A stretch of DNA of 56,283 nucleotides, taken from the UHGV virus genome UHGV-0315882; one strand, 5' to 3'. The first letter of the stretch is position 1. Each line of letters starts with the position of its first letter. Positions 522 through 40,583 of this stretch are shown piece after piece. The notes beneath the pieces were generated by a model. That model saw only the letters and a program-made list of their open reading frames with translations. It had not been told where the DNA came from and made no database searches. Origin of the DNA: a virus. Made by a program: the position numbers and the translations under genes.

Positions 522-612
522 TTTTGAATCTCCAATTTAGGATTTAGTGGTAAAGCTCTTTATCTGGGGCTTACTGTACAGACTTATAAGCCCCTTGTAA
601 AGTACTTTATGC
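522..612 (-). promoter_or_regulatory. Early-gene cassette type 2: TTTACA, GGGGCTTA/TAAGCCCC inverted repeat bracketing a TANNNT hexamer, RBS
   Basis: Conserved flanks shared with copies at 1775-1866, 2380-2464, 2759-2847 and 3229-3318; stem 566-573/587-594; minus-strand TTTACA, 17 bp, TACAGT. Confidence 0.5.
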
Positions 613-921
613 TAAATGCAGCTTTTTGCCTTTTACTATGATGTAACTTGATGCGCTATTGCCGCATACATCTTGATAAATTCTACGCAAACGGCCTTTG
701 TAGTATACTTTCCAACTGGTTGGAATCTTTTTCCCGTATCCTGTAGCAGTTTTTTGGAGTCCTGCAACTTGCCAATCCAAAATGTGCTGTTCAGCCCGTA
801 AATCTTCAAAGCACATCACACCGTCTACATAGTGGCGTAGGGTTACGTTTAAGGTGCGACCGTTGTTAGTAGTGTACATTTTTGAATCTCCTAGTTTAAG
901 GACTTTATTTTGACAGTTCAC
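607..921 (-). CDS. hypothetical protein (104 aa)
   Basis: ORF preceded by a degenerate cassette remnant with GGAGA RBS; stop codon embedded in the conserved cassette flank. Confidence 0.5.
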   Translation of the reverse strand: MNCQNKVLKLGDSKMYTTNNGRTLNVTLRHYVDGVMCFEDLRAEQHILDWQVAGLQKTATGYGKKIPTSWKVYYKGRLRRIYQDVCGNSASSYIIVKGKKLHLA

Positions 922-1063
922 TAATTAAGACATCAAAGATTATATCATTATCTGCTACAGTTGCAACACCAGTGATATAATCAATTTCTAAGATAACAAC
1001 AACTTTCGTACATAAACCGTCATCTATATCATTCCAGATAACTTTATCACCTGCACAAAACAT
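905..1063 (-). CDS. small hypothetical protein (52 aa, below the ORF-track threshold)
   Basis: Hand translation MFCAGDKVIWNDIDDGLCTKVVVILEIDYITGVATVADNDIIFDVLISELSK; ATG immediately downstream of a full cassette (1064-1155) with GGAGA RBS. Confidence 0.3.
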   Translation of the reverse strand: MFCAGDKVIWNDIDDGLCTKVVVILEIDYITGVATVADNDIIFDVLISELSK

Positions 1064-1155
1064 TTTAGAATCTCCAGTTTAGGACTTTATTTAGTGGGGA
1101 AGGTCATTCCCTCCCCGTTGATGTGTAATTTAGCCTATCTAAAAATCAGTGTCAA
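1064..1155 (-). promoter_or_regulatory. Early-gene cassette type 1 (second copy)
   Basis: Near-identical to 16-116: TTGACA, hairpin 1096-1116, GGAGA RBS. Confidence 0.5.
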
Positions 1156-1484
1156 TAGTTCTGTTTTCGTTTGCTCAATTCTTGAACAATTACAGCGTAG
1201 TAGTCTTTTAAGTCACTGACATTTAAAGCATTTATCAGAGAATTATAATCATCAACTAACTGGAAATCATCTTTGAAGATGTCACTTATCTGATAGGTTT
1301 TCGCTTTGTATCTGAAGCTCATCTCTAGCCGCTTTATTTGCTCATCGCTTAAACGCTCTAGAAAGCTCATTACAAGGTTATTGCTAACCTGCTGCGTGAT
1401 TGCCTTACTTGCCAGATTATAGGCTTTATATGCCTTATAAAGTGCTATAATGGCTATGATTGCAGTAATGCCAGTTATTAACAT
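1152..1484 (-). CDS. hypothetical membrane protein (110 aa)
   Basis: Strongly hydrophobic N-terminus (LITGITAIIAIIALY); start overlaps the stop of the upstream ORF. Confidence 0.5.
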   Translation of the reverse strand: MLITGITAIIAIIALYKAYKAYNLASKAITQQVSNNLVMSFLERLSDEQIKRLEMSFRYKAKTYQISDIFKDDFQLVDDYNSLINALNVSDLKDYYAVIVQELSKRKQNY

Positions 1485-1774
1485 GGTGTTTCCTCTTTAC
1501 GTGATACCTTGCCACTTACAGATATCTCATAAGACTCTAATAAATCACTTTTAGACTTTACAGGACTTTTAAAAGTATCATCATAAATATTTACTTGCAA
1601 TACAGGTTTTTTATACTCCCTGCAACTATTCCATAAACAAATCACTACACGACGGCCTTTTATTTTGCCGTGTAACCATTCCATAACATCATGACTATTC
1701 CTTGATGTTTCAATGAAATCAATTTTGTTGAGTAATTTGCTCAGATTCTCACGAACATGATTTGATAATTTCAT
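1478..1774 (-). CDS. hypothetical protein (98 aa)
   Basis: ORF with GGAGA RBS, directly downstream of cassette 1775-1866. Confidence 0.5.
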   Translation of the reverse strand: MKLSNHVRENLSKLLNKIDFIETSRNSHDVMEWLHGKIKGRRVVICLWNSCREYKKPVLQVNIYDDTFKSPVKSKSDLLESYEISVSGKVSRKEETPC

Positions 1775-1866
1775 TTTAGAATCTCCTAGTTTAAGGGATT
1801 TATTTGATAAATCTCTTTATCTGGGGCTATCATATCCGCTTGTTAGCCCCGTGTAAAGAAATCTAT
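1775..1866 (-). promoter_or_regulatory. Early-gene cassette type 2 variant
   Basis: Stem GGGGCTA/TAGCCCC (1823-1829/1844-1850); minus-strand TTTACA, 17 bp, TATGAT; GGAGA RBS. Confidence 0.5.
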
Positions 1867-2379
1867 TTAGTTCTTAAAGATATTCATCACTGAATCTTTT
1901 AATGCTTCCAAGCGTTCTGATACTTCAGATTCTGCGTCTGCGTTGTTCACCTCTTCTTTTAGTCTATCCTCTAAATCATCGCCGTCACGATAGCACCAAT
2001 CGAAAGCATAACCAAGATAAAAACTCTCTAAAACCGTGCTACCGTTTGCATCCACAACTTTCGCGGCAAGGTTGTATTCTGAAGCCTCTAAATCTCTTTC
2101 TAGTTCTTTCTGTAAGCTGGTGTAAGCCTCTTTTGATGGGTTTTCCCGGCCTTGTTTTGCATAGTCACTTGAAAGCTGTTTAAGGCTGTAATGTAAAGGG
2201 ATTGCATATTTAAAATCATTACGCTGACAGTTGGGGTTTTTAATAGTCACGCCGCCTTGATGGTCATCTGTAAATTCCCAATTATCAAGATTATGGCTTG
2301 CTTCAAAGCAATTAACTGCTTCGTAAATGATGGAAAATTTTTCTTTTACAACTTCAAAGGTAGCGTCTACAGTTTTCAT
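1867..2379 (-). CDS. hypothetical acidic protein (170 aa)
   Basis: ORF with cassette-borne RBS; no recognisable motif. Confidence 0.55.
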   Translation of the reverse strand: MKTVDATFEVVKEKFSIIYEAVNCFEASHNLDNWEFTDDHQGGVTIKNPNCQRNDFKYAIPLHYSLKQLSSDYAKQGRENPSKEAYTSLQKELERDLEASEYNLAAKVVDANGSTVLESFYLGYAFDWCYRDGDDLEDRLKEEVNNADAESEVSERLEALKDSVMNIFKN

Positions 2380-2464
2380 TTTTGAATCTCCAGTTTAGGA
2401 TTTAGTGGTAAAGCTCTTTATCTGGGGCTTAAGATATCAACTTTTAAGCCCCTTGTAAAGTACT
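2380..2464 (-). promoter_or_regulatory. Early-gene cassette type 2
   Basis: Stem GGGGCTTAA/TTAAGCCCC (2424-2432/2444-2452); TTTACA, 17 bp, TATCTT; GGAGA RBS. Confidence 0.5.
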
Positions 2465-2758
2465 TTATTTGTTAATTTTCAGCTTTGCATAACTTCTCAT
2501 TGTACGAATGGTGGATGTTAATGCTACGCGTCTAATGTATGCCTTTTTCGTGTATACAGTTGTCTTCCCGATAGTGTTTACACATGTAAAAAGGTTTATC
2601 GGTGAATTTTTTAACTTCAACTGTTTATCAGCCTTCACGCCCCACCTTACAGCAGATTGTTTTCCGTTGTCAACCACTTTTCCGCATAACTTTTTAGCCA
2701 TAACGCGAGCGTCATCACGAGTTTTTGCAGCAATTACAACGTTTTTGATAATAGCCAT
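2465..2758 (-). CDS. hypothetical basic protein (97 aa)
   Basis: ORF after cassette 2759-2847; N-terminus MAII resembles that of ORF 117-521 (MAIN). Confidence 0.5.
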   Translation of the reverse strand: MAIIKNVVIAAKTRDDARVMAKKLCGKVVDNGKQSAVRWGVKADKQLKLKNSPINLFTCVNTIGKTTVYTKKAYIRRVALTSTIRTMRSYAKLKINK

Positions 2759-2847
2759 TTTTTAGTTCTCCAATTTAGGATTTAGTGGTAAAGCTCTTTA
2801 TCTGGGGCTTACTTTATCGAACTATAAGCCCCTTGTAAAGTACTTTA
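2759..2847 (-). promoter_or_regulatory. Early-gene cassette type 2
   Basis: Stem 2804-2811/2825-2832; loop identical to the copy at 3229-3318. Confidence 0.5.
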
Positions 2848-3228
2848 TCAGTTAATTTTGAAAATTGTCACATATCCGTCACTGCCGATTATTTGAGATA
2901 CTCCAGCTTTTTCCACTGAATAGCCCATATTTTCAAGATGATAAACAGCATCATCATAACCATATGCGCCACCCTGATAACGTCTCTTATCGCATCTTAT
3001 CAGGTTTTTACCACGTCCTGCAAGTGCATTCAGTACAGCTTTTTCACTTGATAGCATACCATCTAACATGGTTGCCGTGTAATGGTTGATTCTATTCCCA
3101 TTTACATCATACTTAAAATTGAATGCGTGAACAACGATAATGTTACCTTTAAAATTTTCATCAAGTGACTTCTCCAGTGCGTTGCGAAAGTTGTCTTTGT
3201 TGATGAATTTAGGTGCACGATATGCCAT
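2848..3228 (-). CDS. hypothetical protein (126 aa)
   Basis: ORF with cassette-borne RBS. Confidence 0.55.
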   Translation of the reverse strand: MAYRAPKFINKDNFRNALEKSLDENFKGNIIVVHAFNFKYDVNGNRINHYTATMLDGMLSSEKAVLNALAGRGKNLIRCDKRRYQGGAYGYDDAVYHLENMGYSVEKAGVSQIIGSDGYVTIFKIN

Positions 3229-3318
3229 TTTTGAATCTCCTAGTTTAAGGGTTATTTAGTAAAGCTCTTTATCTGGGGCTTACTTTATCGAACTATAAGC
3301 CCCTTGTAAAGTACTTTA
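3229..3318 (-). promoter_or_regulatory. Early-gene cassette type 2
   Basis: Stem 3275-3282/3296-3303; loop identical to the copy at 2759-2847. Confidence 0.5.
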
Positions 3319-14131: not shown

Positions 14132-15028
14132 TTAATCAAGGTTTGCTACAGTAACTTGGCTATAATGTGTTAAGCCACGGTCTTTAGCTTCCCCTAAAGA
14201 GTTTGTAGTGTAGATATGGTCAATACCATTGTCAAGAAGGTTTTCAACATCTTTAGAGAAGATACCATGTGTTACATAGAGTTCCACTCGTTTTGCACCT
14301 GCTTCACGAAGATGTTTAGCTGCTTCTATGAAGGTTCGTCCTCCATCACAAATATCATCCAGAATCATGACGGTTTTATCTGTCAAATCAACATCGTCAA
14401 GGATTCGCATACCAGTGATTTCACCAGTCTTGAGGTTGCGTACTTTAGACATTGTGATATATGGTTTATCCACCTCTTTAGCGGTTTCTGCAACCTTCTT
14501 AGCAGCACCTGCATCTGGGGCCACTAAGTAATCAACCAGTGGGTCATTTGCATAGTGGACTGCAATCTCCTTTTGAGGAATACTCTGGAAGCAGTTAAAC
14601 AGGTTATCTGGAACGTAACTGTGAGGGTCAACTGCACAGACTGCACCAAACCCCATTGCATTAACCTGTTTAGCAAAAACCTTCAAAGCTGCTGCATCGC
14701 CTTTAAACATGTGACGGTCATATCGTGCATTTGGTAAGTAGTAAAAGATGACAGTCTTTAAAGCATAATCATGAGGAATTAAATCATCAATTGCTTCTTT
14801 AGCAAGTGCTACAGCAAACAATGTGTCTTTATCATAACCTTTTACAATCATAATCACATTGTTGATGGATGATGCAGCATAAGCAGTAAAATCAACAAAC
14901 TCTGGTGAAAAGTGTCCACCAATCTCACCAGAAGGAAATTGGATGATGTTAAACTCTTCTTCATGAGTTCCTTTAGTTGGTGAATGAACTGTAACACGTA
15001 TAGATGTTTTCATAATTTTCTCTCTCAA
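14132..15028 (-). CDS. Ribose-phosphate pyrophosphokinase (Prs) family protein (298 aa); PRPP synthetase or ADPR-PP synthetase (Adps)-like
   Basis: Type I PRTase/PRPP-binding motif VMILDDICDGGRTF; size fits Prs. Confidence 0.8.
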   Translation of the reverse strand: MREKIMKTSIRVTVHSPTKGTHEEEFNIIQFPSGEIGGHFSPEFVDFTAYAASSINNVIMIVKGYDKDTLFAVALAKEAIDDLIPHDYALKTVIFYYLPNARYDRHMFKGDAAALKVFAKQVNAMGFGAVCAVDPHSYVPDNLFNCFQSIPQKEIAVHYANDPLVDYLVAPDAGAAKKVAETAKEVDKPYITMSKVRNLKTGEITGMRILDDVDLTDKTVMILDDICDGGRTFIEAAKHLREAGAKRVELYVTHGIFSKDVENLLDNGIDHIYTTNSLGEAKDRGLTHYSQVTVANLD

Positions 15029-15303
15029 TCAAAAGTTACGTTAGTTACTGCCATTGCAGACTTGCATTTCACAGGGTCTACAACGTGATAAAGTACACTA
15101 CAGTTTCCTGTACTATCTGGCACAGGCTTTACCCATTGCTGTTTGACAGTTGGTTCTCCTAAGTCTTTGTAAGAACCATCTGTATAATTATTTACCATCT
15201 CAAGTGCAATTGGCTCTGGGACATGACCACGTATCATGTACATTTCACAACCATTACCACCTTCACTGACTAATGATAAAATCTCCCACTTTTCTTTAGC
15301 CAT
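15025..15303 (-). CDS. hypothetical protein (92 aa)
   Basis: ATGA overlap with the upstream gene. Confidence 0.5.
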   Translation of the reverse strand: MAKEKWEILSLVSEGGNGCEMYMIRGHVPEPIALEMVNNYTDGSYKDLGEPTVKQQWVKPVPDSTGNCSVLYHVVDPVKCKSAMAVTNVTFD

Positions 15304-15811
15304 TGTAAGTTGCCCTATAAACTATCTCGAACTTCAACAGGAGAGATATTGCCAAATCTGTATAGTTGTTGTCAAGCACATCTGGCATATTATTTTTGAT
15401 ATATCTCTCTTGCTCTTCATAGGTCATCTTAGGGGTACTTAAAAGACTATCTCCTTGCTTCTGGTTATCAGCTTTAGTCTGAATAAACCAGTTTGTACAG
15501 TGATGTTCACCACCTTTTGTAACAGGTTTGTGGTGGCCTAATGTGAAGGATTGACTGCCTGTGTATCTGCAAAGTTTATTGAGTACTGTAATGGTGTTCT
15601 TCACAACAAAGCATTCATACAGGTTGTCTATGGTGTAGTGTGGGTAATATCGAAATAATGCTCTTTCACGAGTACTCTCACGATTCCAGAGAATCATGTG
15701 ATTGGAGTTGGAAGGGTCGTATTGGTGGGAGTCAATGAACTCTTGACGTTCCTCAAAACTGAGTCTTAACACTGACATTGCAGCAGAACGTTTCAGATTT
15801 GACAGATACAT
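15296..15811 (-). CDS. hypothetical protein with possible HNH-nuclease-like motif (171 aa)
   Basis: GHHKPVTKGGEHHCTNW...KADN resembles an HNH core (HH, GG, N); weak. Confidence 0.35.
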   Translation of the reverse strand: MYLSNLKRSAAMSVLRLSFEERQEFIDSHQYDPSNSNHMILWNRESTRERALFRYYPHYTIDNLYECFVVKNTITVLNKLCRYTGSQSFTLGHHKPVTKGGEHHCTNWFIQTKADNQKQGDSLLSTPKMTYEEQERYIKNNMPDVLDNNYTDLAISLLLKFEIVYRATYNG

Positions 15812-15823
15812 ATTATCTCCAAA

Positions 15824-22358: not shown

Positions 22359-24593
22359 CTAAACACCACAACCCTCGCAATAAGCATCTTGCAGTGCAGA
22401 TTTACCTACACCAATGCGACTGTTAAGGTAGTACATGGTTTTCATACCTACCGAGTTGGCATAAATCATGTACTTCAAAGCTTGAGCCAATGATACCTTC
22501 TTAGACTTTGCATAGTCAACATAGAAGTCTGAAGAGATAGCTTGACCAGTGAACTTTTGAACAATTGCATAACAGTCAATCATATCAAAGGTGTCAATAT
22601 CCCAAGCAATTTCATAGACATACTTCAATTCTTCATAATCTGGAACAATGAACAGTACGTTACCAGTTGCAGACTTTTTAGTTAAAATAAAGTCACGAAT
22701 TGGGTACAAACCATTTGTCGTATTAGTTGCTAGTGAAGAACTCTCATTAGGCATGTAAGCTTCTAATACAGAATTTCGGATTCCACCATTTTCTTTGATA
22801 CGTTGTGCTAAGTCATCCCAATCATATCGTAGTTTTGCATCATGCTTTTCATCAATCTTCTTGTTAGCTGTCTTTGGAGGAACCCAGCCTTCAGGATACT
22901 TAGTGAACTTCATGTACTCTGGCACGCCACGTTCTTTAGCAAGTCTCAGAGAGGCTTCATGCAGATAGTAAGAGTGCATCTCTGCCAGTTCATGAAGTTT
23001 CGTTTTACCTGCTCGTGAAGAGTAGTTCACGTAGTTCTTCGCAAGGTAATGAGCCACATTTGTAAGGCCAATCCCAACAGAACGACGCTTCTGAACATGG
23101 TTACGCATCGACGGATACGGATAATCCATAAGGTCAATAACGGAGTCAACCATTGCAAGAGCATAATAAGCAACGTCAGCGTATTCATCTTCTGAAATTC
23201 TCCCTGCAACCAAACTAGCTAGGAAGCAAAGAGCTACCTCACCATCCTCTTTCACAGCATCATCTCTGTAAAGGTCTGTCTCTTTCTCAAAGCCGTACAC
23301 TGGCAACACAATTTCCATACAAAGATTTGACATCTTCAAAGGCTCTTTAAATGGTGTATGTGTGTTTGCATTATTCGTGAAGAATGGGTACACACGGCCT
23401 GTTGCATAACGCTGCTGGATAAACAGTTTAGCAATTTCACGAGCCTTTACTCGTCTGTGCTTAACACCTGAATGCACTGCGTGACCAACTGCCATAGCAA
23501 ACTCATCAGCAGATGCTGTGTAGAACATGTCATAGATTTTTGGTGCATCTTTGTAAGAGAATAGCAACCAATCTGTATCATACTGAACACACTGCCAGAA
23601 ATAATCGTTTGTGCCGAATGAGTAGTCCATCTCATTAATACGTTTAGAAGGAACCGTTGTAGGGTGCTTCAAACGCAGTAAATCTTCAATCTGCGGGTCT
23701 AGAGCAGTGTAGAAGTTATTAGCTGAACCACCACGACTCTTCTGTTTGTTTGCCTCTACAGATGAACGTACAAGCTTGTAATAAGGCAGTTTACCCATAT
23801 GCTCAATAGTATTATGACGGATACCATCACCAATGGTGCGAGTTTCCATCAGCATCCCAATACCAGCTTGCTTTGTAGTCATATCATAAGCAACCTTTGC
23901 AGCAATACCGAGAGACTCAGCAGTATCATTTGCCTTAATCAAACAGCATGACGCATAACCTGATTTAGTTGCTCTTAACCCGTTTAAATAGGGCGTAGGA
24001 GCATTAATCTTCAGGTCAGATAGGTAAGTGTACAGCTTGATAACATCTTGCAGTCTACGGTGCTTTGGTTGCTTCTCAAAGGCTTTCATAGCCATACCCA
24101 TGAACATAAATTGTGGTGACTCAAAAAGTCTTCCCGTTTTAATATCACGGATACCATACTTGTCTCTGAACTGTTTCAAGACTGCATAACCGTAAGAGAT
24201 ATCTTTTGAGTGCACGATGTAACCTTGCAGGTATTCAAGCTCTTCCTGTGAGTAGTCCATCTTCTCCCAAAGTCCTGCTCTCTCCATATTTTTAACGAAG
24301 GTAACCAGCGTAGGAACCTTAGTAAAGCCTCCAAAGGCTTCTTTGTAGATAATTCCCAGAAGTAGCCGTCCAGCCATGTCTGAGTACTCTTGAGTTTGCT
24401 TATCAACACAAACATCAATCATGGCTTGGTGCATCTCTTTTGTAGTGCAACCCTCATAGACACGCTTCATGGCTTCCATAGTGACTTCTGACCAGATAAT
24501 TCCACGCTTGTCTGCCCATGATGCCCACTTATTCAGTCTTTCTGGGTCAAAGCTTACTACTGTACCGTTTGATTTTTTAATTGTCTTAATCAT
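22359..24593 (-). CDS. nrdA: Ribonucleotide reductase large subunit (class Ia alpha)
   Basis: 744 aa; NLCMEIVLP active-site region and C-terminal CEGCGV cysteine pair. Confidence 0.9.
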   Translation of the reverse strand: MIKTIKKSNGTVVSFDPERLNKWASWADKRGIIWSEVTMEAMKRVYEGCTTKEMHQAMIDVCVDKQTQEYSDMAGRLLLGIIYKEAFGGFTKVPTLVTFVKNMERAGLWEKMDYSQEELEYLQGYIVHSKDISYGYAVLKQFRDKYGIRDIKTGRLFESPQFMFMGMAMKAFEKQPKHRRLQDVIKLYTYLSDLKINAPTPYLNGLRATKSGYASCCLIKANDTAESLGIAAKVAYDMTTKQAGIGMLMETRTIGDGIRHNTIEHMGKLPYYKLVRSSVEANKQKSRGGSANNFYTALDPQIEDLLRLKHPTTVPSKRINEMDYSFGTNDYFWQCVQYDTDWLLFSYKDAPKIYDMFYTASADEFAMAVGHAVHSGVKHRRVKAREIAKLFIQQRYATGRVYPFFTNNANTHTPFKEPLKMSNLCMEIVLPVYGFEKETDLYRDDAVKEDGEVALCFLASLVAGRISEDEYADVAYYALAMVDSVIDLMDYPYPSMRNHVQKRRSVGIGLTNVAHYLAKNYVNYSSRAGKTKLHELAEMHSYYLHEASLRLAKERGVPEYMKFTKYPEGWVPPKTANKKIDEKHDAKLRYDWDDLAQRIKENGGIRNSVLEAYMPNESSSLATNTTNGLYPIRDFILTKKSATGNVLFIVPDYEELKYVYEIAWDIDTFDMIDCYAIVQKFTGQAISSDFYVDYAKSKKVSLAQALKYMIYANSVGMKTMYYLNSRIGVGKSALQDAYCEGCGV

Positions 24594-24609
24594 TTTTGAA
24601 TCCTACAGA

Positions 24610-24636
24610 TGAAAAGAGCCTCCGAAGAGGCTCCCT
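24610..24636 (-). terminator. Intrinsic terminator
   Basis: GAGCCTC-cgaa-GAGGCTC followed by a T-run on the minus strand. Confidence 0.55.
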
Positions 24637-24639
24637 AGT

Positions 24640-24978
24640 TTAAATCTTGAAAATTTGCTCATTCTGCCACATATCGTAAAACTTATCACTTACTTTTGTG
24701 ACTGAAGAAGTGTGCATACAATTCAGGGAGAACCATGATGATGTATTATCATCCATAAGTGTTTCAAGTTTTTGTGTAACGTTCACATCCATGTCTGCAA
24801 CAACATAATTACCTCGCATCTTGCAAACAATTCTTCCAAACAAGATTGCACTTCTACCTCTTCGGTCATCACAGTACATAACTGTGTCTCCGTGCTTAAC
24901 GTCTTGTCCGATACTGTCAACACCTAGCTTAGCACCTGAGATAATGTCATCATAAGATAGCTTTTTTGCTTTAGACAC
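24640..24978 (-). CDS. hypothetical protein (112 aa)
   Basis: ORF in same-strand array. Confidence 0.5.
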   Translation of the reverse strand: MSKAKKLSYDDIISGAKLGVDSIGQDVKHGDTVMYCDDRRGRSAILFGRIVCKMRGNYVVADMDVNVTQKLETLMDDNTSSWFSLNCMHTSSVTKVSDKFYDMWQNEQIFKI

Positions 24979-25303
24979 GGTATTTCTCCAAGTTTCTTTT
25001 TAGATATAACCAACCGTAGTCAGTCCTTTCTACACCCATAAAAAGTGGAGCCATCACAACTTTACCAAAAGTATTTCTGTGTTGGCAGATTTCAAAGGAA
25101 TACTCTTTCTCAATATCAATCCCGTATTTGTACAGGACTGCTTTTAAAACTTGTTCATTATCCAGAAGTGTATCTGGAGTCTCACCATACTTCTCAAGTA
25201 ACGGGTCATTCATAAACACCGTCATAGAGATATTGTAGTTTGAGAAGTGGCTCTTCTGAGCCACACCTTCTTTATTAATGTTCTGTGAATCCATTATAAC
25301 CAA
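24971..25303 (-). CDS. hypothetical protein (110 aa)
   Basis: ORF in same-strand array. Confidence 0.5.
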   Translation of the reverse strand: MVIMDSQNINKEGVAQKSHFSNYNISMTVFMNDPLLEKYGETPDTLLDNEQVLKAVLYKYGIDIEKEYSFEICQHRNTFGKVVMAPLFMGVERTDYGWLYLKRNLEKYRV

Positions 25304-26030
25304 CCCCTTTTAACCAGCACTTCAGGTTATTAGCATCATAATTCAGTTTCGGGTATGAGGTTACATGGAACTGCTCACCATCGTAGTAGACAATATCTGC
25401 AATCCATAGTCCATTCTCTTTACAGAAATCTTTATCTGCTTTAGAGGTAATTGGATTAACTTCTACAAAACCATCTACACCCAAATCCTTTAAGCTACAT
25501 ACAATACCTTTGCAGATAACGCATGTATCAGATACTACCACAAAAAGTTCTTGGCTTTCAAGCTCTACAATGTATTCACCAAGCTGTACTTTAGGGAGAT
25601 TTGATTGCTTCATAATCTTCCCATCGGCTGCACGGACAATCGCATACCACTCTTTACCATCAACCACTGACATTCTGATGATACACTCTTGACCAGTACG
25701 CTTCTCAATATCTGCAAGACGTTTTAAAGCTTCTTCATAGTCATCTGTGTACTTCAGGTCATTATTATGGCAAACAGCTTTCATAGCACCGTTATGGTCA
25801 TGTTGTGACAGATAAATCAGACCATCAAGAACATATTGCAAATCTGCCTGAGCATCCAGTGTCTCAATGGGGTCTTTTTCTTCAATTGCTTTTACAAGCT
25901 CTTTTGCTTCTTCAAGCATACACAGAGACTGGGATTTTAAAGATTCCCAATACTCATCACTGTAAGGTTGCTTTTGAGTGTTTCCACAACGAAGATTCCA
26001 GTTTTTTACTGCTTCTCTTGAGTTAAACAT
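25275..26030 (-). CDS. hypothetical protein, possible MazG-like NTP pyrophosphohydrolase domain (251 aa)
   Basis: LEEAKELVKAIEEKD...DLQYVLDGL resembles the EExxE/D helix pair of all-alpha NTP-PPases; weak. Confidence 0.3.
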   Translation of the reverse strand: MFNSREAVKNWNLRCGNTQKQPYSDEYWESLKSQSLCMLEEAKELVKAIEEKDPIETLDAQADLQYVLDGLIYLSQHDHNGAMKAVCHNNDLKYTDDYEEALKRLADIEKRTGQECIIRMSVVDGKEWYAIVRAADGKIMKQSNLPKVQLGEYIVELESQELFVVVSDTCVICKGIVCSLKDLGVDGFVEVNPITSKADKDFCKENGLWIADIVYYDGEQFHVTSYPKLNYDANNLKCWLKGVGYNGFTEH

Positions 26031-33001: not shown

Positions 33002-33424
33002 TTATTTCTCTCTCAGTTGGTTAAGTTTCTTTCTAGAACATTTTAAGTTTTCTGATGAAGAAAAGTCAAGTGTCTTTTCAGAACGTGGATAGTAGTGTCT
33101 ATCCCAAGAAGTTTCGACATCGTTAATCAGTGATGCTAGATTACACAGGTCTGTACCACTTTGCAACCTCTTTTTAAGAGAATCTAGTAAAGCAACTGTG
33201 TCTTTGGCTTTACGTCTCGCTGTAGCAACATCTTTCATATGCTCAAATACAGAGCATTTTAAGTCATCTTCATAGTTTTCAGACAACTCTATTTCATGTT
33301 GTATATCAACCATTCTCCTGTGATGGTGAGCATATTCCCGTTGAGCAGCAATGTCAAGTTCTTCCAACTTCTGCAAAGCTCTAACAAAGTCAGCTATGTC
33401 TGGGTGAACAAACATTTTCTGCAT
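33002..33424 (-). CDS. hypothetical protein (140 aa)
   Basis: First minus-strand gene next to the divergent control region; AAAAGAGG RBS. Confidence 0.55.
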   Translation of the reverse strand: MQKMFVHPDIADFVRALQKLEELDIAAQREYAHHHRRMVDIQHEIELSENYEDDLKCSVFEHMKDVATARRKAKDTVALLDSLKKRLQSGTDLCNLASLINDVETSWDRHYYPRSEKTLDFSSSENLKCSRKKLNQLREK

Positions 33425-33681
33425 GTAAGCCTCTTTTAAGTAACTATTAAGTTTTAATCTTTTATCTTAACGTATTCTATACGTTATACTTTAAAGCTTT
33501 TTAAAAGCTATTAAATAATCTTTTAAGAGTTTTAAAGTATCTGTATAGTTAAACTGTTAAGTAACCTTTTAAGTAAAAACCCACTTCGCAAAGATTAACA
33601 CCTTGTCAAGTGCATTGTCAACTTGCTTTTTATAATTTTTTGCAGTAATGTATGAGGTTAATGATTTTAGAGGGAGTAAAA
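33425..33681. promoter_or_regulatory. AT-rich divergent control region
   Basis: Consensus TATAAT at 33631-33636 upstream of the polymerase ATG; repeated CTTTTAAG/TTTAAAG motifs; small inverted repeat ACGTAT/ATACGT (33471-33486). Confidence 0.45.
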
Positions 33682-36381
33682 ATGGAAAACGTAGATTTTA
33701 AAAACTTACATTTGGTTGGTGATACAGAAACTGATGGTTTACTCCTTGAGTTCACTAAAGTGCACGTAATGGCTTTCGCAGACTATAAATCTGACGATGA
33801 AGAGCCACCTGTATGGGTCTTTACAGATGAACCTATCCTCGGTCACAAGTATACCAAGTACATTAAGGGTGGCTTACGTGAAGGTGTTGAATTTGCGTTA
33901 AAGGCAAAACGTCTTTGCATCCATAATGGTCTCGGTTATGACTGGTGGGTTTTCAATCACATTGCACCTGATTTGTGGAACTTTGATAATCCAAAATGTA
34001 AGCCGTGGAGTAATTTCTTTCAGGATTCTCTTATCCAGTCTCGTGTTCAGTGGATGGATAGACCAACTCCAAAGGGCTATAAAGGTGCTCATGGTTTGGC
34101 TGCATGGGGTGCTCGTGTTGGTGTTCGTAAACCAGAGATTGAACATTGGGGTGTGTGGAATGCAGAAATCTTCACTCGTGTTGTAGAAGATATCCGTATT
34201 AACGCCAAAACTAAACGGGCGCTTGATAATGAATATCTCAAGCTTAAGAAGTGTGGCATAGACACTTATGAAACCTACATGCGAGCTAAAGAAACATCTT
34301 TCTGGATGAGTCAACAAGCTATCAATGGCTGGAAAGCTGATAAAGAGCTTATGGAGTTCCATGTAAAGGAACTTGACAAGTTGACTAATGAGCTTGCTTC
34401 AGAGGTTGAACCACATCTACCTCCAACTATTAAGACCAAAGGTAAAGTAACTGGTGAAGAGTTTGCAAAGGCTTGGAATGAGTATGTTGAAACATTTGGT
34501 CATGCAGATGGGTTGAAGAGAATCACCAAGTATCCTAAGACGAAGTACCGTCAACAGGTGCGTAACGGTGAGATGCAGACATACGAAATCAAACCATTTG
34601 GTAAGCCAACTACAAAGATTTTTAACATTGAAAAGAGAAATTGCTATACACCAACCAACTCTGTAACTGGTGAAGAGTACAAGGAAGGCTTTGTAGCAAT
34701 GAAGGATGCTCGTGCAATTTGCAATGAGTTGAATGCAAAGATTGGTAAGAAATGCAAAGACTGGAAGCCAGTGAAAACAGTCAAAACTGTGAAGTACTAT
34801 AACAGTCACGTTGTTAACCACTTTGAACTTGAGTCAAGTCGATACACAGGTTTGATTGATGCACCATATACACCAATTGATTTTGAAGTTTCTCGTATGA
34901 CTCAGGTAGCAGTTGTTAAAGACTACTTGAAATCAGTTGGTTGGATTCCAGATGACTGGAACTACAAGAAAGACTCAGATGGTCGCCCTGTCAAAGTTTG
35001 TCGTTTCAAAGACAATAAAAAGATGATTACAAAACATCCTAAGTGGCAGGAAATGGTTGAGCGGTGTGGTTTGAGCTATGTTGAACATGAAGGTGTACAG
35101 TACATTGAACATAACTGGTCTGTGAAGAAGTACACAGATTTGCTTGAGCCTTGCTTAATCCGTACTTCACCAAAGCTTACTGAGTCATCTTATGATACGA
35201 TTGAAGGTGAACTTGGACAGAAGATTGCTAAGTACTATACTTTGATGCACCGACGCAGAACTATTGAGAACTCAAAGGATGATGAAAAAGGTTGGTTGAA
35301 CCAGATTCGTCCTGATGGTCGCCTTAGTGCTGGTGCAATGGTGTTTGGTACTTCAACTGGACGTATGACACAATATGGTATTGTAAACGTACCGTCTGGT
35401 GCTGCTGTCTATGGGGAACCAATGAGGGCAGTGTGGATTTGTGAGGAAGGTACTAACGTTGTCTCTGTAGATATGAACTCAGCCCAGCTAGTTCTACTTT
35501 GTAACTTTATGGGTGATAAAGACTTCACCAAAGCGGTAACGCAAGGTAAAGAAGAAATTGAGTTCATTCGTCAAGAAGATGGACGCTATTACTGCAAACA
35601 CTTTGATGAGTACCTCAACCCAGAGATTGATAAGTACCTTCGCTATGACTCTGAGAATGACCTGTACGTTGTCTATTCAGGGACTGATGCACATACACTG
35701 AACAGTATTTACTTTAGCTTGAATGATGAGCAGGACATCTTGACTTGTCGAGCTACTCAGGATGAGAATCTTCTTCATGAGATTAGCAAAGGTCGTAAGA
35801 AAGCTAAGAATGGTATCTATGCACTGCTGTTCGGTGCAGGTGATGAGAAGTTTGCTAAGACGATTAAAGCTGCGACTACTCAGGAAGGTGCGCTGACTAA
35901 ACAGACTTACTTTATACGTTTGCCTAAAATTAAGAAGCTACTAGATGACTTGGAAGCTGACTACAAAGCAACTAAAAAGGCACTTGAAGAGGTGTTTGGT
36001 AAGACTGCTGCAATCTCTAAAGGGGGTTTTGTAAAGGTTGCTGGAGCTTGGTTGTGGTGTAAATCTCCACATAAGTTATTGAATTATTTGCTTATGGGTT
36101 CGGAAAGTCAGATTCAGAACGAGGCAATTAACCTTGCTTGCCGTCGTATGATTGACGAAGGTTTGATGAAGTTGAACGGTCGCAAACCCGCTATAGGTGC
36201 TCGTTTATTGTGCTCCTATCACGACGAGACAAGTTGGGAATGCCCAGAAAGTATGACGGCAGAGGTGAAGGCTGTTACTGATTGGTATTACGGGCAAGCC
36301 TCTAAGAACTTAGGACTAAAAAGTGAAACACTGGTAACTGGTACTGGTAAGGTTGGCAAATCGTGGTTGGAAGTGCATTAA
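33682..36381 (+). CDS. DNA polymerase, family A (T7-like) with 3'-5' exonuclease domain
   Basis: Start trimmed to MENVDF with GAGGGAG RBS; Exo I DTETDG; motifs resembling pol A motif A (VDMNSAQL), motif B (KNGIYALLFG) and motif C (YHDE). Confidence 0.85.
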   Translation: MENVDFKNLHLVGDTETDGLLLEFTKVHVMAFADYKSDDEEPPVWVFTDEPILGHKYTKYIKGGLREGVEFALKAKRLCIHNGLGYDWWVFNHIAPDLWNFDNPKCKPWSNFFQDSLIQSRVQWMDRPTPKGYKGAHGLAAWGARVGVRKPEIEHWGVWNAEIFTRVVEDIRINAKTKRALDNEYLKLKKCGIDTYETYMRAKETSFWMSQQAINGWKADKELMEFHVKELDKLTNELASEVEPHLPPTIKTKGKVTGEEFAKAWNEYVETFGHADGLKRITKYPKTKYRQQVRNGEMQTYEIKPFGKPTTKIFNIEKRNCYTPTNSVTGEEYKEGFVAMKDARAICNELNAKIGKKCKDWKPVKTVKTVKYYNSHVVNHFELESSRYTGLIDAPYTPIDFEVSRMTQVAVVKDYLKSVGWIPDDWNYKKDSDGRPVKVCRFKDNKKMITKHPKWQEMVERCGLSYVEHEGVQYIEHNWSVKKYTDLLEPCLIRTSPKLTESSYDTIEGELGQKIAKYYTLMHRRRTIENSKDDEKGWLNQIRPDGRLSAGAMVFGTSTGRMTQYGIVNVPSGAAVYGEPMRAVWICEEGTNVVSVDMNSAQLVLLCNFMGDKDFTKAVTQGKEEIEFIRQEDGRYYCKHFDEYLNPEIDKYLRYDSENDLYVVYSGTDAHTLNSIYFSLNDEQDILTCRATQDENLLHEISKGRKKAKNGIYALLFGAGDEKFAKTIKAATTQEGALTKQTYFIRLPKIKKLLDDLEADYKATKKALEEVFGKTAAISKGGFVKVAGAWLWCKSPHKLLNYLLMGSESQIQNEAINLACRRMIDEGLMKLNGRKPAIGARLLCSYHDETSWECPESMTAEVKAVTDWYYGQASKNLGLKSETLVTGTGKVGKSWLEVH

Positions 36382-36391
36382 TGGTGACAAA

Positions 36392-36919
36392 ATGATTACA
36401 CAAGAACGTTTAAAGGAGCTACTACACTATGACCCCGAAACAGGGGTCTTTACTTGGCTTCGTAGAGAGGGTGACTCAAGGGCTGTTAAAGTCTTTAATA
36501 GTAAGTACGCAGGACAGGTAGCGGGGAGCATCCAGATTGACTCAACTAGTCATAAGCAGATTACTATCTATTTTGACAAGAAAGCACATAAAGCACACAG
36601 ACTCGCATGGCTGTACGTGTATGGTAGGCTACCGAAAGGTGTTATTGACCATATTAATGGGGACTCCCTTGATAACAGGGTTGTAAACTTAAGAGAAGCA
36701 GATGACTGCCAAAGTGCTTGGAATAAAAGCAAACTATCCACCAATAAATCAGGCTATAAGGGTGTAAGCCTGAAGAAGAAGTCTGGTAGGTGGGTTGCGC
36801 AAATAAGCTATAAAGGTAAAAAGATGTCATTAGGTTACTATGACACACCAGAAGAGGCCCATAAAGCTTACTGTGAAGCTGCTATTAAACTCCACGGAGA
36901 ATTTGCAAAACTAAGTTGA
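36392..36919 (+). CDS. HNH homing endonuclease with C-terminal AP2 DNA-binding domain
   Basis: HRLAWLYVYG...DHINGDSLDNRVVNL (HNH) and YKGVS...GRWVAQI...YDTPEEAHKAY...HGEFA (AP2-like); start trimmed to MITQE. Confidence 0.65.
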   Translation: MITQERLKELLHYDPETGVFTWLRREGDSRAVKVFNSKYAGQVAGSIQIDSTSHKQITIYFDKKAHKAHRLAWLYVYGRLPKGVIDHINGDSLDNRVVNLREADDCQSAWNKSKLSTNKSGYKGVSLKKKSGRWVAQISYKGKKMSLGYYDTPEEAHKAYCEAAIKLHGEFAKLS

Positions 36920-39411: not shown

Positions 39412-39418
39412 AAAGTTG

Positions 39419-39446
39419 TTGACATAGAAAATTTGGTGAGTATACT
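39419..39446 (+). promoter_or_regulatory. Strong sigma70-like promoter
   Basis: TTGACA (39419-39424), 16 bp spacer, TATACT (39441-39446). Confidence 0.55.
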
Positions 39447-39620
39447 GAGCAGCATAAAACAACAGGTACTCACCAGCATCACTTAAGAGTCTTCTAAGAG
39501 GGTTTTAAGTGATGTATTGCACGGTAAAGTGATGTGAAGTCTGGTTTGGCATGGTGTGGTCTGGTATGGAAGGATGGCAGTAGCCTTATAAAAAATCTGC
39601 CAAATAAGCTATAAAATCTG

Positions 39621-39649
39621 TTGACAAGTCAGGTGTTATAGCTTATTTT
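39621..39649 (+). promoter_or_regulatory. Candidate sigma70-like promoter
   Basis: TTGACA (39621-39626), 17 bp spacer, TATTTT; ~45 bp upstream of the 39694 start codon. Confidence 0.4.
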
Positions 39650-39693
39650 TATACTCAATGTAATACAAAATTTAATATAACTTTGAGGTCATT

Positions 39694-40078: not shown

Positions 40079-40291
40079 ATGGCTCTTAAAAAGTTACATC
40101 CCAGAAGCGGTTATGGTAAGATAATTGACGATACAGACGGCTTTACAGTCTTTACAGTCATCTGTCAAGATGATTCACAGATTGAGAAGGCTCTTGATGA
40201 TTATCTCAACGATGAACGTGAAAAGGTTAGGGCTACAAACATAGATTCATTGATTGACACTTCACGCAAACGGAAGAAGAAAGATGAATGA
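40079..40291 (+). CDS. hypothetical protein (70 aa)
   Basis: ORF in tight plus-strand array. Confidence 0.45.
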   Translation: MALKKLHPRSGYGKIIDDTDGFTVFTVICQDDSQIEKALDDYLNDEREKVRATNIDSLIDTSRKRKKKDE

Positions 40292-40583
40292 GGTTTTTGA
40301 CCCTTATGCTCCACAAGATGATTGGGAGGCTGACAGAGAGGCTGAAATGGAGAGTTATATTTGTCCAATGGATGTAGACGAAATGAGAGACTTCGTTGCA
40401 CATCGTTTTAAGAGAGAGATTAAATCCAGAGGTCTTTCTCAAGAGCAAGTTGCTAAAATTTGTGGTATCTCTCAGGCTCGTGTATCCAACATAATCCACC
40501 TCACTGGTAATGTCTCCCTTGAGTATATGTTGGAAGTATGCGAAAAATTTGGTGTTAATTTTAATTTAAGGCTGGCAGATTAA
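40284..40583 (+). CDS. helix-turn-helix domain protein, putative transcriptional regulator (99 aa)
   Basis: LSQEQVAKICGISQARVSNI resembles an XRE-type HTH; start trimmed to MNEVF. Confidence 0.5.
   Translation: MNEVFDPYAPQDDWEADREAEMESYICPMDVDEMRDFVAHRFKREIKSRGLSQEQVAKICGISQARVSNIIHLTGNVSLEYMLEVCEKFGVNFNLRLAD

What the first reader, a model, noticed from the sequence alone, without database searches (positions are those of the whole stretch)
33425..33681. AT-rich divergent control region between the two replication gene blocks
Minus-strand and plus-strand gene blocks diverge here. The region carries a consensus TATAAT upstream of the polymerase gene with no well-spaced -35, at least six CTTTTAAG/TTTAAAG-type motifs and a short palindrome. 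Repeated motifs without a -35 suggest phage-specific (middle-type) promoter control or an origin-associated site.
Basis: seen in the sequence. Interest (0 to 1): 0.4.

Follow-up and report, generated by a model that had tools for sequence, protein, structure and literature searches.

The report
Divergent promoters plus phased octamer array
The gap between the two replication gene blocks of this Felix O1-like phage holds two back-to-back host-type promoters and an extremely AT-rich leader built from an 8-base motif repeated about once per DNA turn, and the same motif also fills the phage's genome ends, so it looks like an undescribed protein-binding or DNA-opening element rather than a phage-specific promoter.

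Summary
The window is a Felixounavirus (Felix O1-like phage). The interpretation needs revising.

- **TATAAT.** It is genus-specific and sits inside the spacer of a conserved promoter.
- **Promoters.** Comparison across five Ounavirinae lineages shows two abutting sigma70-type promoters in 33592-33651:
  - P_left (minus strand): TTGACA, N18, TGn-TAATCT, with a second TTGACA in the spacer.
  - P_pol (plus strand): TTGCTT, N17, TAATGT.
- **Repeats.** The AT-rich repeats (33433-33573) therefore lie in the transcribed leader of the minus-strand operon.
  - They are octamers with a conserved CT-N4-AG frame, spaced about 11 bp apart.
  - The same arrays follow the genome's two other double-TTGACA promoters.
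  - They also fill the 1.7-kb non-coding region that carries the direct terminal repeat.
- **Duplex stability.** The array is the least stable duplex in the whole genome.

Best reading: an early divergent promoter pair plus a DNA-level array that binds an unidentified protein. A transcription-activated origin (DUE) is the main rival. A middle-type, phage-specific promoter is not supported. Interest is moderate; the element is undescribed in the papers I could search.

The parts
33002..33424 (-). First gene of the minus-strand replication block (140 aa, Felix01p180 family, phrog_4039, function unknown). Its SD AAGAGG is the reverse complement of 33430-33435.
   Evidence: ORF list; PHROG and Pfam scans; AlphaFold model is a helical hairpin with no fold match.
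33433..33573 (.). AT-rich array of octamers with frame CT-N4-AG, about 11 bp apart. Strict copies: 33433 CTTTTAAG, 33444 CTATTAAG, 33489 CTTTAAAG, 33520 CTTTTAAG, 33541 CTGTATAG, 33554 CTGTTAAG, 33566 CTTTTAAG. Degenerate copies: 33459, 33497, 33508, 33530. It is the transcribed leader of P_left.
   Evidence: 7 strict copies against 1.07 expected, 0/500 shuffles. Spacings 11, 12, 13, 21. Across 24 sequences the frame positions vary at 9% of columns, the interior at 25% and the spacers at 40%; Fisher p=0.0013 for frame against spacer. Least stable 150-bp duplex of the window (z=4.8, 20.7% GC) and of the whole 89-kb genome.
33468..33486 (.). Perfect 8-bp inverted repeat with a 3-nt centre (TAACGTAT TCT ATACGTTA): a hairpin in the P_left leader RNA, or a symmetric operator.
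   Evidence: Repeat finder I22. 2 of 8 pairs show compensatory double changes: A-U to U-A in 8 sequences and C-G to U-A in 3 sequences.
33486..33540 (.). Imperfect 55-bp palindrome (27-nt arms, 78% complementary) centred on 33513 and built from the octamers.
   Evidence: Repeat finder I1. No covariation, because the pairs are almost invariant. The leader RNA fold has z=-2.2.
33578..33585 (-). Invariant box AACCCACT (minus strand AGTGGGTT) at the predicted P_left transcription start (about 33585). Similar GGGGTTT...CT(T)AAAAGG starts follow the other double-TTGACA promoters.
   Evidence: Invariant columns in A3; comparison of the three promoter modules and of L063. The start site is inferred, not mapped.
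33592..33621 (-). P_left: -35 TTGACA (33621-33616), 18-bp spacer, TGT + -10 TAATCT (33600-33592). A second perfect TTGACA (33609-33604) lies inside the spacer.
   Evidence: Block 33592-33628 varies at only 19% of columns. The exact TTGACA-N6-TTGACA match is unique in the window. The same layout occurs in Wc4, SE5, phi63_307 and L063. Two more copies occur in the genome, at nataliec 13113 and 23822. The Moogle change falls on the free N of TGn.
33623..33651 (+). P_pol: -35 TTGCTT (33623-28), 17-bp spacer of variable sequence but constant length, -10 TAATGT (33646-51; TA..GT invariant). Predicted start about 33658.
   Evidence: A3: the -35 is invariant, the spacer varies at 71% of columns without length change, and the -10 reads TA[AG][ATG]GT. 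Equivalent promoters: TTGCAA-N17-TACTAT in L063, TTGACC-N17-CATACT in Wc4, and a TG-extended TATGAT in SE5.
33631..33636 (+). It lies in the P_pol spacer and is present only in genus Felixounavirus.
   Evidence: Present in all Felixounavirus rows. Replaced by GAAACT, GAAGAT, CAAAAA, CATAAA or GTGTCG in Suspvirus, Mooglevirus and other rows.
33670..33684 (+). SD GAGGGAG and the true polymerase start ATG at 33682.
   Evidence: Only 13% of columns vary here, against 83% plus 1-2-nt indels in 33652-33669. Several relatives annotate the start at the equivalent ATG.

Best explanation
The 257-bp gap is the shared early control region of the two divergent replication operons of a Felix O1-like phage. 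It has two functionally different halves.

(1) 33592-33651 holds two back-to-back promoters read by host sigma70 RNA polymerase. Their -35 hexamers abut.
- P_left (minus strand) is TTGACA-N18-TGnTAATCT and carries a second TTGACA in its spacer.
- P_pol (plus strand) is TTGCTT-N17-TAATGT.

(2) 33433-33573 is the first ~150 bp transcribed from P_left and lies upstream of P_pol. It is an array of about 8-12 octamers with a conserved CT-N4-AG frame, spaced about one helical turn (11 bp) apart, plus a small hairpin or palindrome.

The same array type follows the genome's two other double-TTGACA promoters and fills the non-coding region that carries the direct terminal repeat. From this I infer that the array works at the DNA level. 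It would be a platform on which an unidentified sequence-specific protein, phage or host, binds one face of the helix and oligomerises. There it could block or time transcription leaving P_left, modulate P_pol, and exploit or control the extreme ease of strand opening.

Shown: sequence features, conservation, enrichment, periodicity, genome-wide distribution, and duplex instability. Inferred: promoter activity, transcription start sites, protein binding, and any regulatory outcome.
For: Identity: 98-100% identical to Felixounavirus genomes.

Promoters:
- Conserved hexamers with constant spacer length but variable spacer sequence across 24 sequences from several genera.
- Equivalent pairs in Wc4, Kolesnikvirus and the L063 lineage, whose polymerases are 62-70% identical.
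- The double-TTGACA architecture recurs three times in intergenic DNA of nataliec, each time followed by CTTAAAAG copies.
- The Felix O1 polymerase gene is transcribed by 5 min, and no RNA-polymerase modifiers are known (PMC3185647).

Array:
- CT-N4-AG occurs 7 times against 1.07 expected here. It occurs 61 times against 11.7 in the 1.7-kb terminal region and 9 against 3.65 in the other divergent region.
- The spacing mode is 11 bp, with multiples at 21-22 bp; Tandem Repeats Finder reports period-11 arrays.
- Frame positions are far more conserved than spacers.
- The enrichment is conserved in Mooglevirus, Kolesnikvirus and L063.

DNA-level reading:
- The largest array is gene-free and holds the 613-bp terminal repeat.
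- A scan finds an intrinsic terminator at one of its edges, on the minus strand after gene 28. Some GenBank records annotate a terminator on the other side, but the scan did not call one there.

Instability: the array is the global minimum of nearest-neighbour duplex stability in the genome and in the window.
Against: - No binding protein was identified. The only recognisable DNA-binding protein is an HTH_3 regulator. A Pfam scan of 41 small proteins found no RHH or HTH domain. The first gene of the operon is a helical hairpin with no informative fold match.
- Both -10 hexamers, and the P_pol -35, match consensus at only 3 of 6 positions. The generic promoter scan did not call either promoter.
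- Octamer orientation is uniform with respect to transcription in all three leaders. This would also fit an RNA-level or strand-specific (single-stranded DNA) role.
- Two compensatory changes in the small hairpin point to base pairing, possibly in RNA.
- The frame was defined on this sequence family, so the motif definition is partly post hoc.
- No experimental data exist for transcription starts or protein binding.
Confidence: 0.5

Rival explanations
1. Transcription-activated replication origin. P_left fires into the least stable DNA of the genome, the transcript forms a persistent R-loop or opens the duplex (DUE), and the phage T7-like primase-helicase and polymerase start bidirectional replication there. 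The oriented 11-bp repeats would be DUE repeats read in single-stranded form. The arrays at the terminal repeat and the other divergent region would be secondary origins.
For: - The 150-bp array is the global minimum of duplex stability: -1.075 against -1.282 +/- 0.045 kcal/mol per step, 20.7% GC. The next minima are the terminal region and the 23.8-kb array.
- A conserved promoter lies immediately upstream.
- The location is between the polymerase block and the primase-helicase block.
- Cumulative GC skew has its minimum here.
- The repeats are direct, oriented and AT-rich, as in plasmid and oriC DUE 13-mers. The promoter-plus-DUE layout is that of T4 oriF/oriG and the T7 primary origin (my own knowledge).
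Against: - GC skew flips wherever gene orientation flips, also at 43 kb, so it cannot separate replication from transcription.
- T4-type DUEs are not sequence-specific, whereas here CT/AG positions are selectively conserved.
- About 60 copies in 1.7 kb at the genome ends is far more than a DUE needs.
- No initiator protein or initiator-type iterons (17-22 bp) were recognised.
- No experimental origin data exist for any Ounavirinae in the papers searched.
Confidence: 0.25
2. RNA-level leader element. The about 160-nt AU-rich 5' UTR of the minus-strand operon carries CUUAA(A/C/U)AG repeats and a hairpin. These would bind a protein (translational repressor, S1-type enhancer, RNase protection) and set translation or stability of the replication mRNAs.
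For: - The array lies between the predicted start (about 33585) and the SD, and the last octamer overlaps the SD.
- The motif reads CTTAAnAG in the sense direction in all three promoter leaders.
- The hairpin at 33468-86 keeps pairing through two compensatory changes.
- The leader fold has z=-2.2.
- The AU-rich UUAAA-type repeats recall the T4 gene 32 operator (my own knowledge).
Against: - The biggest arrays sit in the gene-free terminal-repeat region. A scan finds an intrinsic terminator at one of its edges, and it contains both orientations, which is hard to explain at the RNA level.
- An 11-nt period has no obvious meaning for single-stranded RNA but equals a helical turn.
- No Rfam family matches.
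- The first gene product is not an OB-fold or known RNA binder.
- The large palindrome shows no covariation.
Confidence: 0.15
3. The CTTTTAAG/TTTAAAG motifs are recognition elements of a phage-specific (middle-type) promoter class that replaces the -35, with the TATAAT as its -10.
For: - TATAAT without a properly spaced -35 is really there.
- TGCTT at 33624-28 resembles the core of a T4 MotA box (my own knowledge).
- The Felix O1 authors found no canonical promoter in this gap.
Against: - TATAAT is lost in sister genera while the flanking blocks stay invariant.
- TGCTT ends 2 bp from TATAAT and 17 bp from the conserved -10, not the 11-13 bp of MotA promoters.
- The motifs are not upstream of other genes. 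They lie downstream of promoters and in gene-free terminal DNA.
- The polymerase gene is expressed by 5 min, and no MotA/AsiA-like factors are reported.
Confidence: 0.05
4. No specific function. The gap is AT-rich spacer DNA whose repeats arose by slippage or duplication and drift, and it is conserved only because the genomes are closely related.
For: Most database relatives are 95-100% identical, so raw conservation is weak evidence. AT-rich DNA yields many promoter-like and repeat-like matches.
Against: - Position-specific conservation (frame 9%, spacer 40%, neighbouring non-promoter DNA 71-83% variable columns) across genera.
- The same frame is enriched 3-5 fold in lineages with only 62-64% polymerase identity.
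- The 11-bp phasing.
Confidence: 0.05

Closest known systems
Back-to-back (divergent) sigma70 promoters of enterobacteria and their phages, including the TG-extended -10 class
   Same: Perfect TTGACA -35, 17-18-bp spacers of fixed length, TAnnnT -10 hexamers, a TGn motif one base upstream of the P_left -10, and early expression by host RNA polymerase.
   Different: Both -10 hexamers are weak (3 of 6). P_left carries a second perfect TTGACA inside its spacer, a layout repeated at three promoters of this genome, with no known meaning. The promoters are predicted, not mapped.
Promoter-plus-DUE origins: T4 oriF/oriG, T7 primary origin, ColE1 RNA II (my own knowledge)
   Same: A promoter firing directly into a short, very AT-rich, easily melted segment next to replication genes. 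The phage has a T7-type polymerase and primase-helicase.
   Different: Those DUEs are short (about 50-60 bp) and sequence-unspecific. Here there is a 140-bp array of a conserved, phased octamer that also occurs about 60 times at the genome ends. No R-loop or origin data exist.
Helically phased small-site arrays bound by small dimeric regulators: R1 parC (ten 11-bp iterons flanking a promoter, bound by ParR), MetJ metbox arrays, omega heptads (my own knowledge)
   Same: Short (8-bp) quasi-palindromic-frame sites repeated about once per turn, placed next to or over a promoter, and present in several arrays in one replicon.
   Different: No ParR/ParM, MetJ or omega homologue, nor any RHH protein, was detected. 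The site interiors are oriented and degenerate. One array overlaps a phage terminal repeat.
T4 middle promoters (MotA box + -10)
   Same: A -10-like TATAAT without a spaced -35, and a TGCTT pentamer nearby.
   Different: The spacing is wrong, TATAAT is not conserved, no MotA/AsiA is reported, and the gene is early.
T4 gene 32 translational operator (AU-rich UUAAA repeats in a 5' leader)
   Same: A long AU-rich leader with repeated UUAAA-like units ending at the SD.
   Different: No upstream pseudoknot was found. The downstream gene product is a helical hairpin, not an SSB. The same repeats occur in untranslated terminal DNA.
Short-repeat arrays next to terminal repeats of T7-group phages (SRL/SRR; my own knowledge)
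   Same: Dense arrays of short direct repeats in and beside a direct terminal repeat of a few hundred bp.
   Different: T7 arrays are heptamers confined to the ends. Here the same motif also sits in promoter leaders far from the ends.

Membership tests
sigma70-type promoter (P_left, minus strand) | -35 hexamer close to TTGACA | tested here: met
   Perfect TTGACA at 33621-33616, invariant in 24 sequences.
sigma70-type promoter (P_left, minus strand) | -10 hexamer TAnnnT at 17+/-1 bp, optionally TGn-extended | tested here: met
   TAATCT or TAGTCT at 18 bp, preceded by TGT or TGG. The only change in the TGn motif falls on the free N. Wc4, SE5, phi63_307 and L063 have TTGACA-N17-TAGGCT, TACATT or TAATGT.
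sigma70-type promoter (P_left and P_pol) | Transcription starts about 7 nt downstream of the -10 and is made by host holoenzyme | not testable with these tools
   Only indirect support: Felix O1 ORF 96 is transcribed at 5 min.
sigma70-type promoter (P_pol, plus strand) | -35 and -10 hexamers with a fixed 17-bp spacer | tested here: met
   TTGCTT is invariant. The spacer varies at 71% of columns with no length change. The -10 is TA..GT invariant. Each hexamer matches consensus at only 3 of 6, and the generic scan missed it.
T4-type middle promoter | MotA box (TGCTT core) centred near -30, 11-13 bp upstream of the -10 | tested here: not met
   TGCTT at 33624-28 ends 2 bp from TATAAT and 17 bp from the conserved -10.
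T4-type middle promoter | Phage encodes MotA/AsiA-like factors, and the gene is expressed after early protein synthesis | not tested
   No search was run. The Felix O1 paper reports no such proteins and early (5 min) expression.
Replication origin with DUE | Local minimum of duplex stability | tested here: met
   Global minimum in the window (z=4.8) and in the 89-kb genome.
Replication origin with DUE | Initiator-binding iterons or a priming promoter next to the DUE | tested here: inconclusive
   A conserved promoter abuts the array. The octamers could be binding sites, but no initiator is known.
Replication origin with DUE | Replication initiates there (marker frequency, 2D gels, autonomous replication) | not testable with these tools
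   No data found in the papers searched. GC skew is confounded by gene orientation.
ParR/parC-type or RHH-bound phased iteron array | Short direct repeats spaced one helical turn apart, next to a promoter | tested here: met
   Spacing mode 11 bp. The array abuts P_left and P_pol.
ParR/parC-type or RHH-bound phased iteron array | A cognate small RHH or other adaptor protein encoded nearby | tested here: not met
   A Pfam scan of 41 small proteins of the genome found no RHH or HTH family. Only an HTH_3 regulator lies about 6.6 kb away.
T4 gene 32-type translational operator | The downstream gene encodes the single-strand-binding protein that binds its own leader | tested here: not met
   The 140-aa product is an all-helical hairpin with no OB fold and no Pfam hit.
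Known RNA family (Rfam) | Covariance-model match at the gathering threshold | tested here: not met
   No match anywhere in the window.

The most novel reading that the evidence does not exclude
The 11-bp-phased CT-N4-AG octamer arrays are the binding platform of an unidentified Ounavirinae DNA-binding factor. This factor would physically or functionally couple the genome ends (terminal repeat: concatemer formation, packaging or replication) with the three double-TTGACA promoters that drive the replication and morphogenesis operons. That would be a genome-wide architectural and regulatory system not described for any phage group. The pol-proximal array might double as the primary origin.
Probability: 0.3. 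Interest if true: 0.65.

Novelty: new variant of a known kind. Interest (0 to 1): 0.45.

Why it matters
Felix O1-like phages are widely used for Salmonella and E. coli typing, biocontrol and therapy. Even so, the genome paper states that how their transcription is initiated in this very gap and timed is unknown (PMC3185647).

This analysis gives concrete, testable promoter coordinates for both replication operons. It also defines a promoter class (double TTGACA) and a motif family that links promoter leaders with the terminal repeat.

If the array is an operator platform or an origin, it is the natural handle for engineering these phages: expression timing, replication control and safe insertion sites. 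It would also help in finding the factor that reads it.

Tried and rejected
1. Intrinsic DNA curvature as the reason for the 11-bp phasing. A wedge-model calculation, with parameters recalled from memory, gives average curvature for the arrays: 17.5 degrees per 30 bp against a genome mean of 17.4. Rejected.
2. Known RNA families and tRNAs. None were found in the window.
3. Function of the first downstream gene. Pfam, PHROGs, PDB sequence search, an AlphaFold model (pLDDT 72.5) and Foldseek against PDB gave only generic coiled-coil hits with E>0.1. Uninformative.
4. Candidate binder. A Pfam scan of 41 small proteins found no RHH or HTH. DUF5681 (nataliec gene 44) and the HTH_3 regulator were noted but cannot be linked to the motif.
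5. Arrays outside Ounavirinae. An exact-pattern scan of IMG/VR (CTGTTAAGN{2,4}CTKTTAAG) returned mostly single hits in unrelated contigs that look like chance. Uninformative.
6. A single-protein locus search returned only near-identical phages. A polymerase alignment query was needed to reach other lineages.
7. Terminal-repeat position. I first mis-placed the physical ends in the tRNA region from the UAB_Phi87 gene table. The Ro111lw record, with identical 613-bp ends, places them inside the 1.7-kb array region.
8. A looser motif definition (CT + at least 3 W + AG) is too frequent (5.1 per kb) to find further clusters.
9. Leader peptide. The leader has no ATG before the gene start (sequence).
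10. Literature. No paper in the library describes promoters, origin or these repeats for Felixounavirus.

Full report
**What the window is.** The 1.2 kb around the finding is 98-100% identical to more than 200 Felixounavirus genomes (Felix O1-like myoviruses of E. coli, Salmonella and Shigella). Phage nataliec (MN850611.1) is identical over 33300-33800. I fetched its whole genome as a stand-in for the parts that lie outside the window. Window x corresponds to nataliec 99677-x on the opposite strand.

To the left of the gap lies a 140-aa gene of unknown function, followed by dNMP kinase and primase-helicase on the minus strand. To the right lies the family-A DNA polymerase on the plus strand.

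**Observation.**
- TATAAT at 33631-36 without a -35 at 16-18 bp.
- CTTTTAAG at 33433, 33520 and 33566.
- CTTTAAAG at 33489 and TTTTAAAG at 33530.
- A perfect 8-bp inverted repeat at 33468-86.

The clustering is not chance. CTTTTAAG occurs 3 times against 0.10 expected. The more general frame CT-N4-AG occurs 7 times against 1.07 expected in dinucleotide shuffles of the same 236 bp (0/500 for both).

**Promoters.** I aligned the gap with Suspvirus and Mooglevirus genomes. I then aligned 24 distinct sequences from GenBank and IMG/VR. Three results follow.

First, the TATAAT is confined to the genus Felixounavirus. In the other genera it is replaced by unrelated sequence.

Second, the block 33592-33628 is nearly invariant (19% variable columns). 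Read on the minus strand, it is TTGACA (33621-16), an 18-bp spacer, then TGT-TAATCT (33600-33592). This is a perfect -35 with a TG-extended TAnnnT -10. The single change in the TGn motif falls on the free N.

Third, immediately to the right there is an invariant TTGCTT (33623-28). It is followed by a 17-bp spacer that varies at 71% of columns but never in length, and then by TA[AG][ATG]GT (33646-51). That is the classic signature of a promoter.

More distant lineages have the same back-to-back pair with the same spacings:
- Pectobacterium phage Wc4, 70% polymerase identity.
- Kolesnikvirus SE5 and phi63_307, 61-64% identity.
- IMG/VR contig L063, 62% identity.

In Kolesnikvirus a homing-endonuclease gene has been inserted before the polymerase gene, yet P_left and the repeats stay with the 140-aa gene. 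The generic consensus scan did not call either promoter because the -10 hexamers are weak. Promoter activity is therefore inferred from comparative evidence, not shown.

The Felix O1 genome paper assumed divergent promoters in exactly this gap (genes 96/97) but reported finding none. It also reported that ORF 96 is transcribed within 5 min and that the phage encodes no known modifiers of RNA polymerase. That fits host sigma70 early promoters and not middle-type control.

**Position of the repeats.** Because P_left sits at the polymerase-proximal end of the gap, the AT-rich repeats (33433-33573) are not upstream promoter DNA for the minus operon. They form its roughly 160-nt leader, and they lie upstream of P_pol.

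**The motif family.** At orthologous positions the octamers interchange: CTTTTAAG, CTGTTAAG, CTATTAAG, CTACTAAG and CTTTATAG. CT and AG stay fixed throughout. Frame positions vary at 9% of columns, interiors at 25% and inter-octamer spacers at 40%. Fisher p is 0.0013 for frame against spacer. Successive copies are 11-13 bp apart, or multiples of that.

**Genome-wide distribution.** In the whole nataliec genome the motif clusters in only three places:
- This gap.
- The other divergent gap, between genes 43 and 44.
- A 1.7-kb gene-free region (14147-15820) with 61 CT-N4-AG copies against 11.7 expected. The spacing mode there is 11 bp, and Tandem Repeats Finder reports period-11 arrays, for example 12.9 copies of ATCTGTTAAGA.

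That 1.7-kb region contains the physical genome ends. The Ro111lw record has identical 613-bp termini that map to nataliec 14629-15219.

The enrichment is conserved in the equivalent regions of a Mooglevirus (59 against 11.9) and a Kolesnikvirus (27 against 8.1). It is also found upstream of the polymerase in L063 (10 against 2.1).

**A promoter class.** TTGACA-N6-TTGACA occurs four times in nataliec, and three of these are intergenic (13113, 23822 and 66056, the last being P_left). The three align with each other through the TGn-extended -10. Each is followed within 25-45 nt by CTTAAAAG copies reading in the sense direction. The second TTGACA lies in the spacer and has no -10 of its own. Its role is unexplained.

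**Physical property.** The array is the least stable 100-, 150- and 200-bp duplex in the window (z=4.1-4.8; 20.7% G+C). The same holds for the whole 89-kb genome. The next minima include the terminal region and the 23.8-kb array. Predicted intrinsic curvature is unremarkable.

**Base pairing.** The small inverted repeat keeps its symmetry through two compensatory double changes. The large 55-bp palindrome is too invariant to test. The leader RNA folds only slightly better than shuffles (z=-2.2). There is no Rfam match.

**Mechanism.** I commit to the following reading.
- An early divergent sigma70 promoter pair: high confidence, about 0.85.
- An array that acts on DNA as a helically phased binding platform for an unidentified protein, which modulates both promoters: moderate confidence.

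The DNA-level reading rests on three points: the 11-bp period, the palindromic CT...AG frame, and the largest arrays lying in gene-free terminal DNA. A scan finds an intrinsic terminator at one edge of that region.

The main rival is a transcription-activated origin (promoter plus DUE, as in T4 oriF/oriG or the T7 primary origin). It is supported by the stability minimum, the adjacent promoter and the position between replication genes. It is weakened by the sequence-specific conservation and by the sheer number of copies at the ends. GC skew cannot decide, because it follows gene orientation.

An RNA-level leader function is a third possibility. It is favoured by the uniform sense orientation and by the hairpin covariation.

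The two leading explanations are not exclusive.

**What failed.** No binder could be named. The first gene product is a helical hairpin without fold matches. No RHH or HTH protein was found among 41 small proteins. The only recognisable regulator is an HTH_3 protein in the polymerase-side block. Searches of the literature found no description of these promoters, repeats or an origin in this phage group.

**Verdict.** The promoter pair is ordinary biology newly located. The phased octamer arrays that link promoter leaders with the terminal repeat are, as far as I could find, undescribed. They are a new variant of known iteron- or operator-type arrays.

Noticed in passing
nataliec MN850611.1 14147-15820 (L012; outside the window): A 1.7-kb gene-free region between convergent gene blocks is packed with about 60 CT-N4-AG octamers (CTTAAAAG, CTGTTAAG, CTTGTTAG) at 11-bp spacing. 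It contains the 613-bp direct terminal repeat (about 14629-15219). Octamer orientation switches from CTTAAAAG-type on the left to CTGTTAAG-type on the right.
   Followed up: partly
nataliec 13113, 23822 and 66056 (L012/L013); the window copy is 33604-33621 (-): Three intergenic promoters share an unusual layout: two perfect TTGACA hexamers 12 bp apart, the second inside the spacer, plus a TG-extended weak -10 and a similar G-rich/T-rich start region. The role of the second hexamer is unexplained.
   Followed up: partly
window 522-3318: Six or seven 85-92-bp intergenic units between small minus-strand genes repeat the same module: TTTACA/TTGACA, then a GGGGCTTA...TAAGCCCC hairpin occupying the promoter spacer and -10, then GGAGATTC SD. 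A terminator-like hairpin is embedded in a promoter. Felix O1's published 57-bp direct repeats are the same element.
   Followed up: no
window 39412-39693: A 282-bp intergenic gap with two near-consensus sigma70 promoters (TTGACA-N16-TATACT and TTGACA-N17-TATTTT). A few CT-N4-AG copies (CTTCTAAG, GTTTTAAG) lie downstream of the first. It heads the operon that includes the HTH_3 regulator (40254-40583 +).
   Followed up: no
window 33652-33684: Three in-frame ATGs (33652, 33661, 33682) are used as the polymerase start in different GenBank records. Indels of 1-2 nt and 83% variable columns in 33652-33669 show that only 33682, behind GAGGGAG, can be the real start.
   Followed up: yes
window 36353-36919 (+): An HNH + AP2-domain homing endonuclease overlaps the end of the polymerase gene. 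In phage VpaE1 the polymerase is annotated in two pieces with small ORFs, one annotated as endonuclease VII, between them. In Kolesnikvirus another homing endonuclease sits between the promoters and the polymerase gene.
   Followed up: no
whole window: CTTTTAAG is over-represented window-wide (18 against 4.4 expected) with a 14:4 strand bias. Most copies are inside genes, probably a codon-usage effect (CTT-AAA-AG).
   Followed up: partly
nataliec 24425-25840 (L012; outside the window): The vWFA protein next to the tRNA cluster matches PHROG 850 'RNA-binding protein' (Ro60-like). It is the second gene of the operon driven by the 23822 double-TTGACA promoter. The Ro60 similarity is already noted for Bas63 gp130 in the PhageMaP preprint.
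   Followed up: no
window 14218-14247 (-): Two overlapping one-mismatch matches to TTGACA-N6-TTGACA lie inside a coding region. They were not examined further.
   Followed up: no
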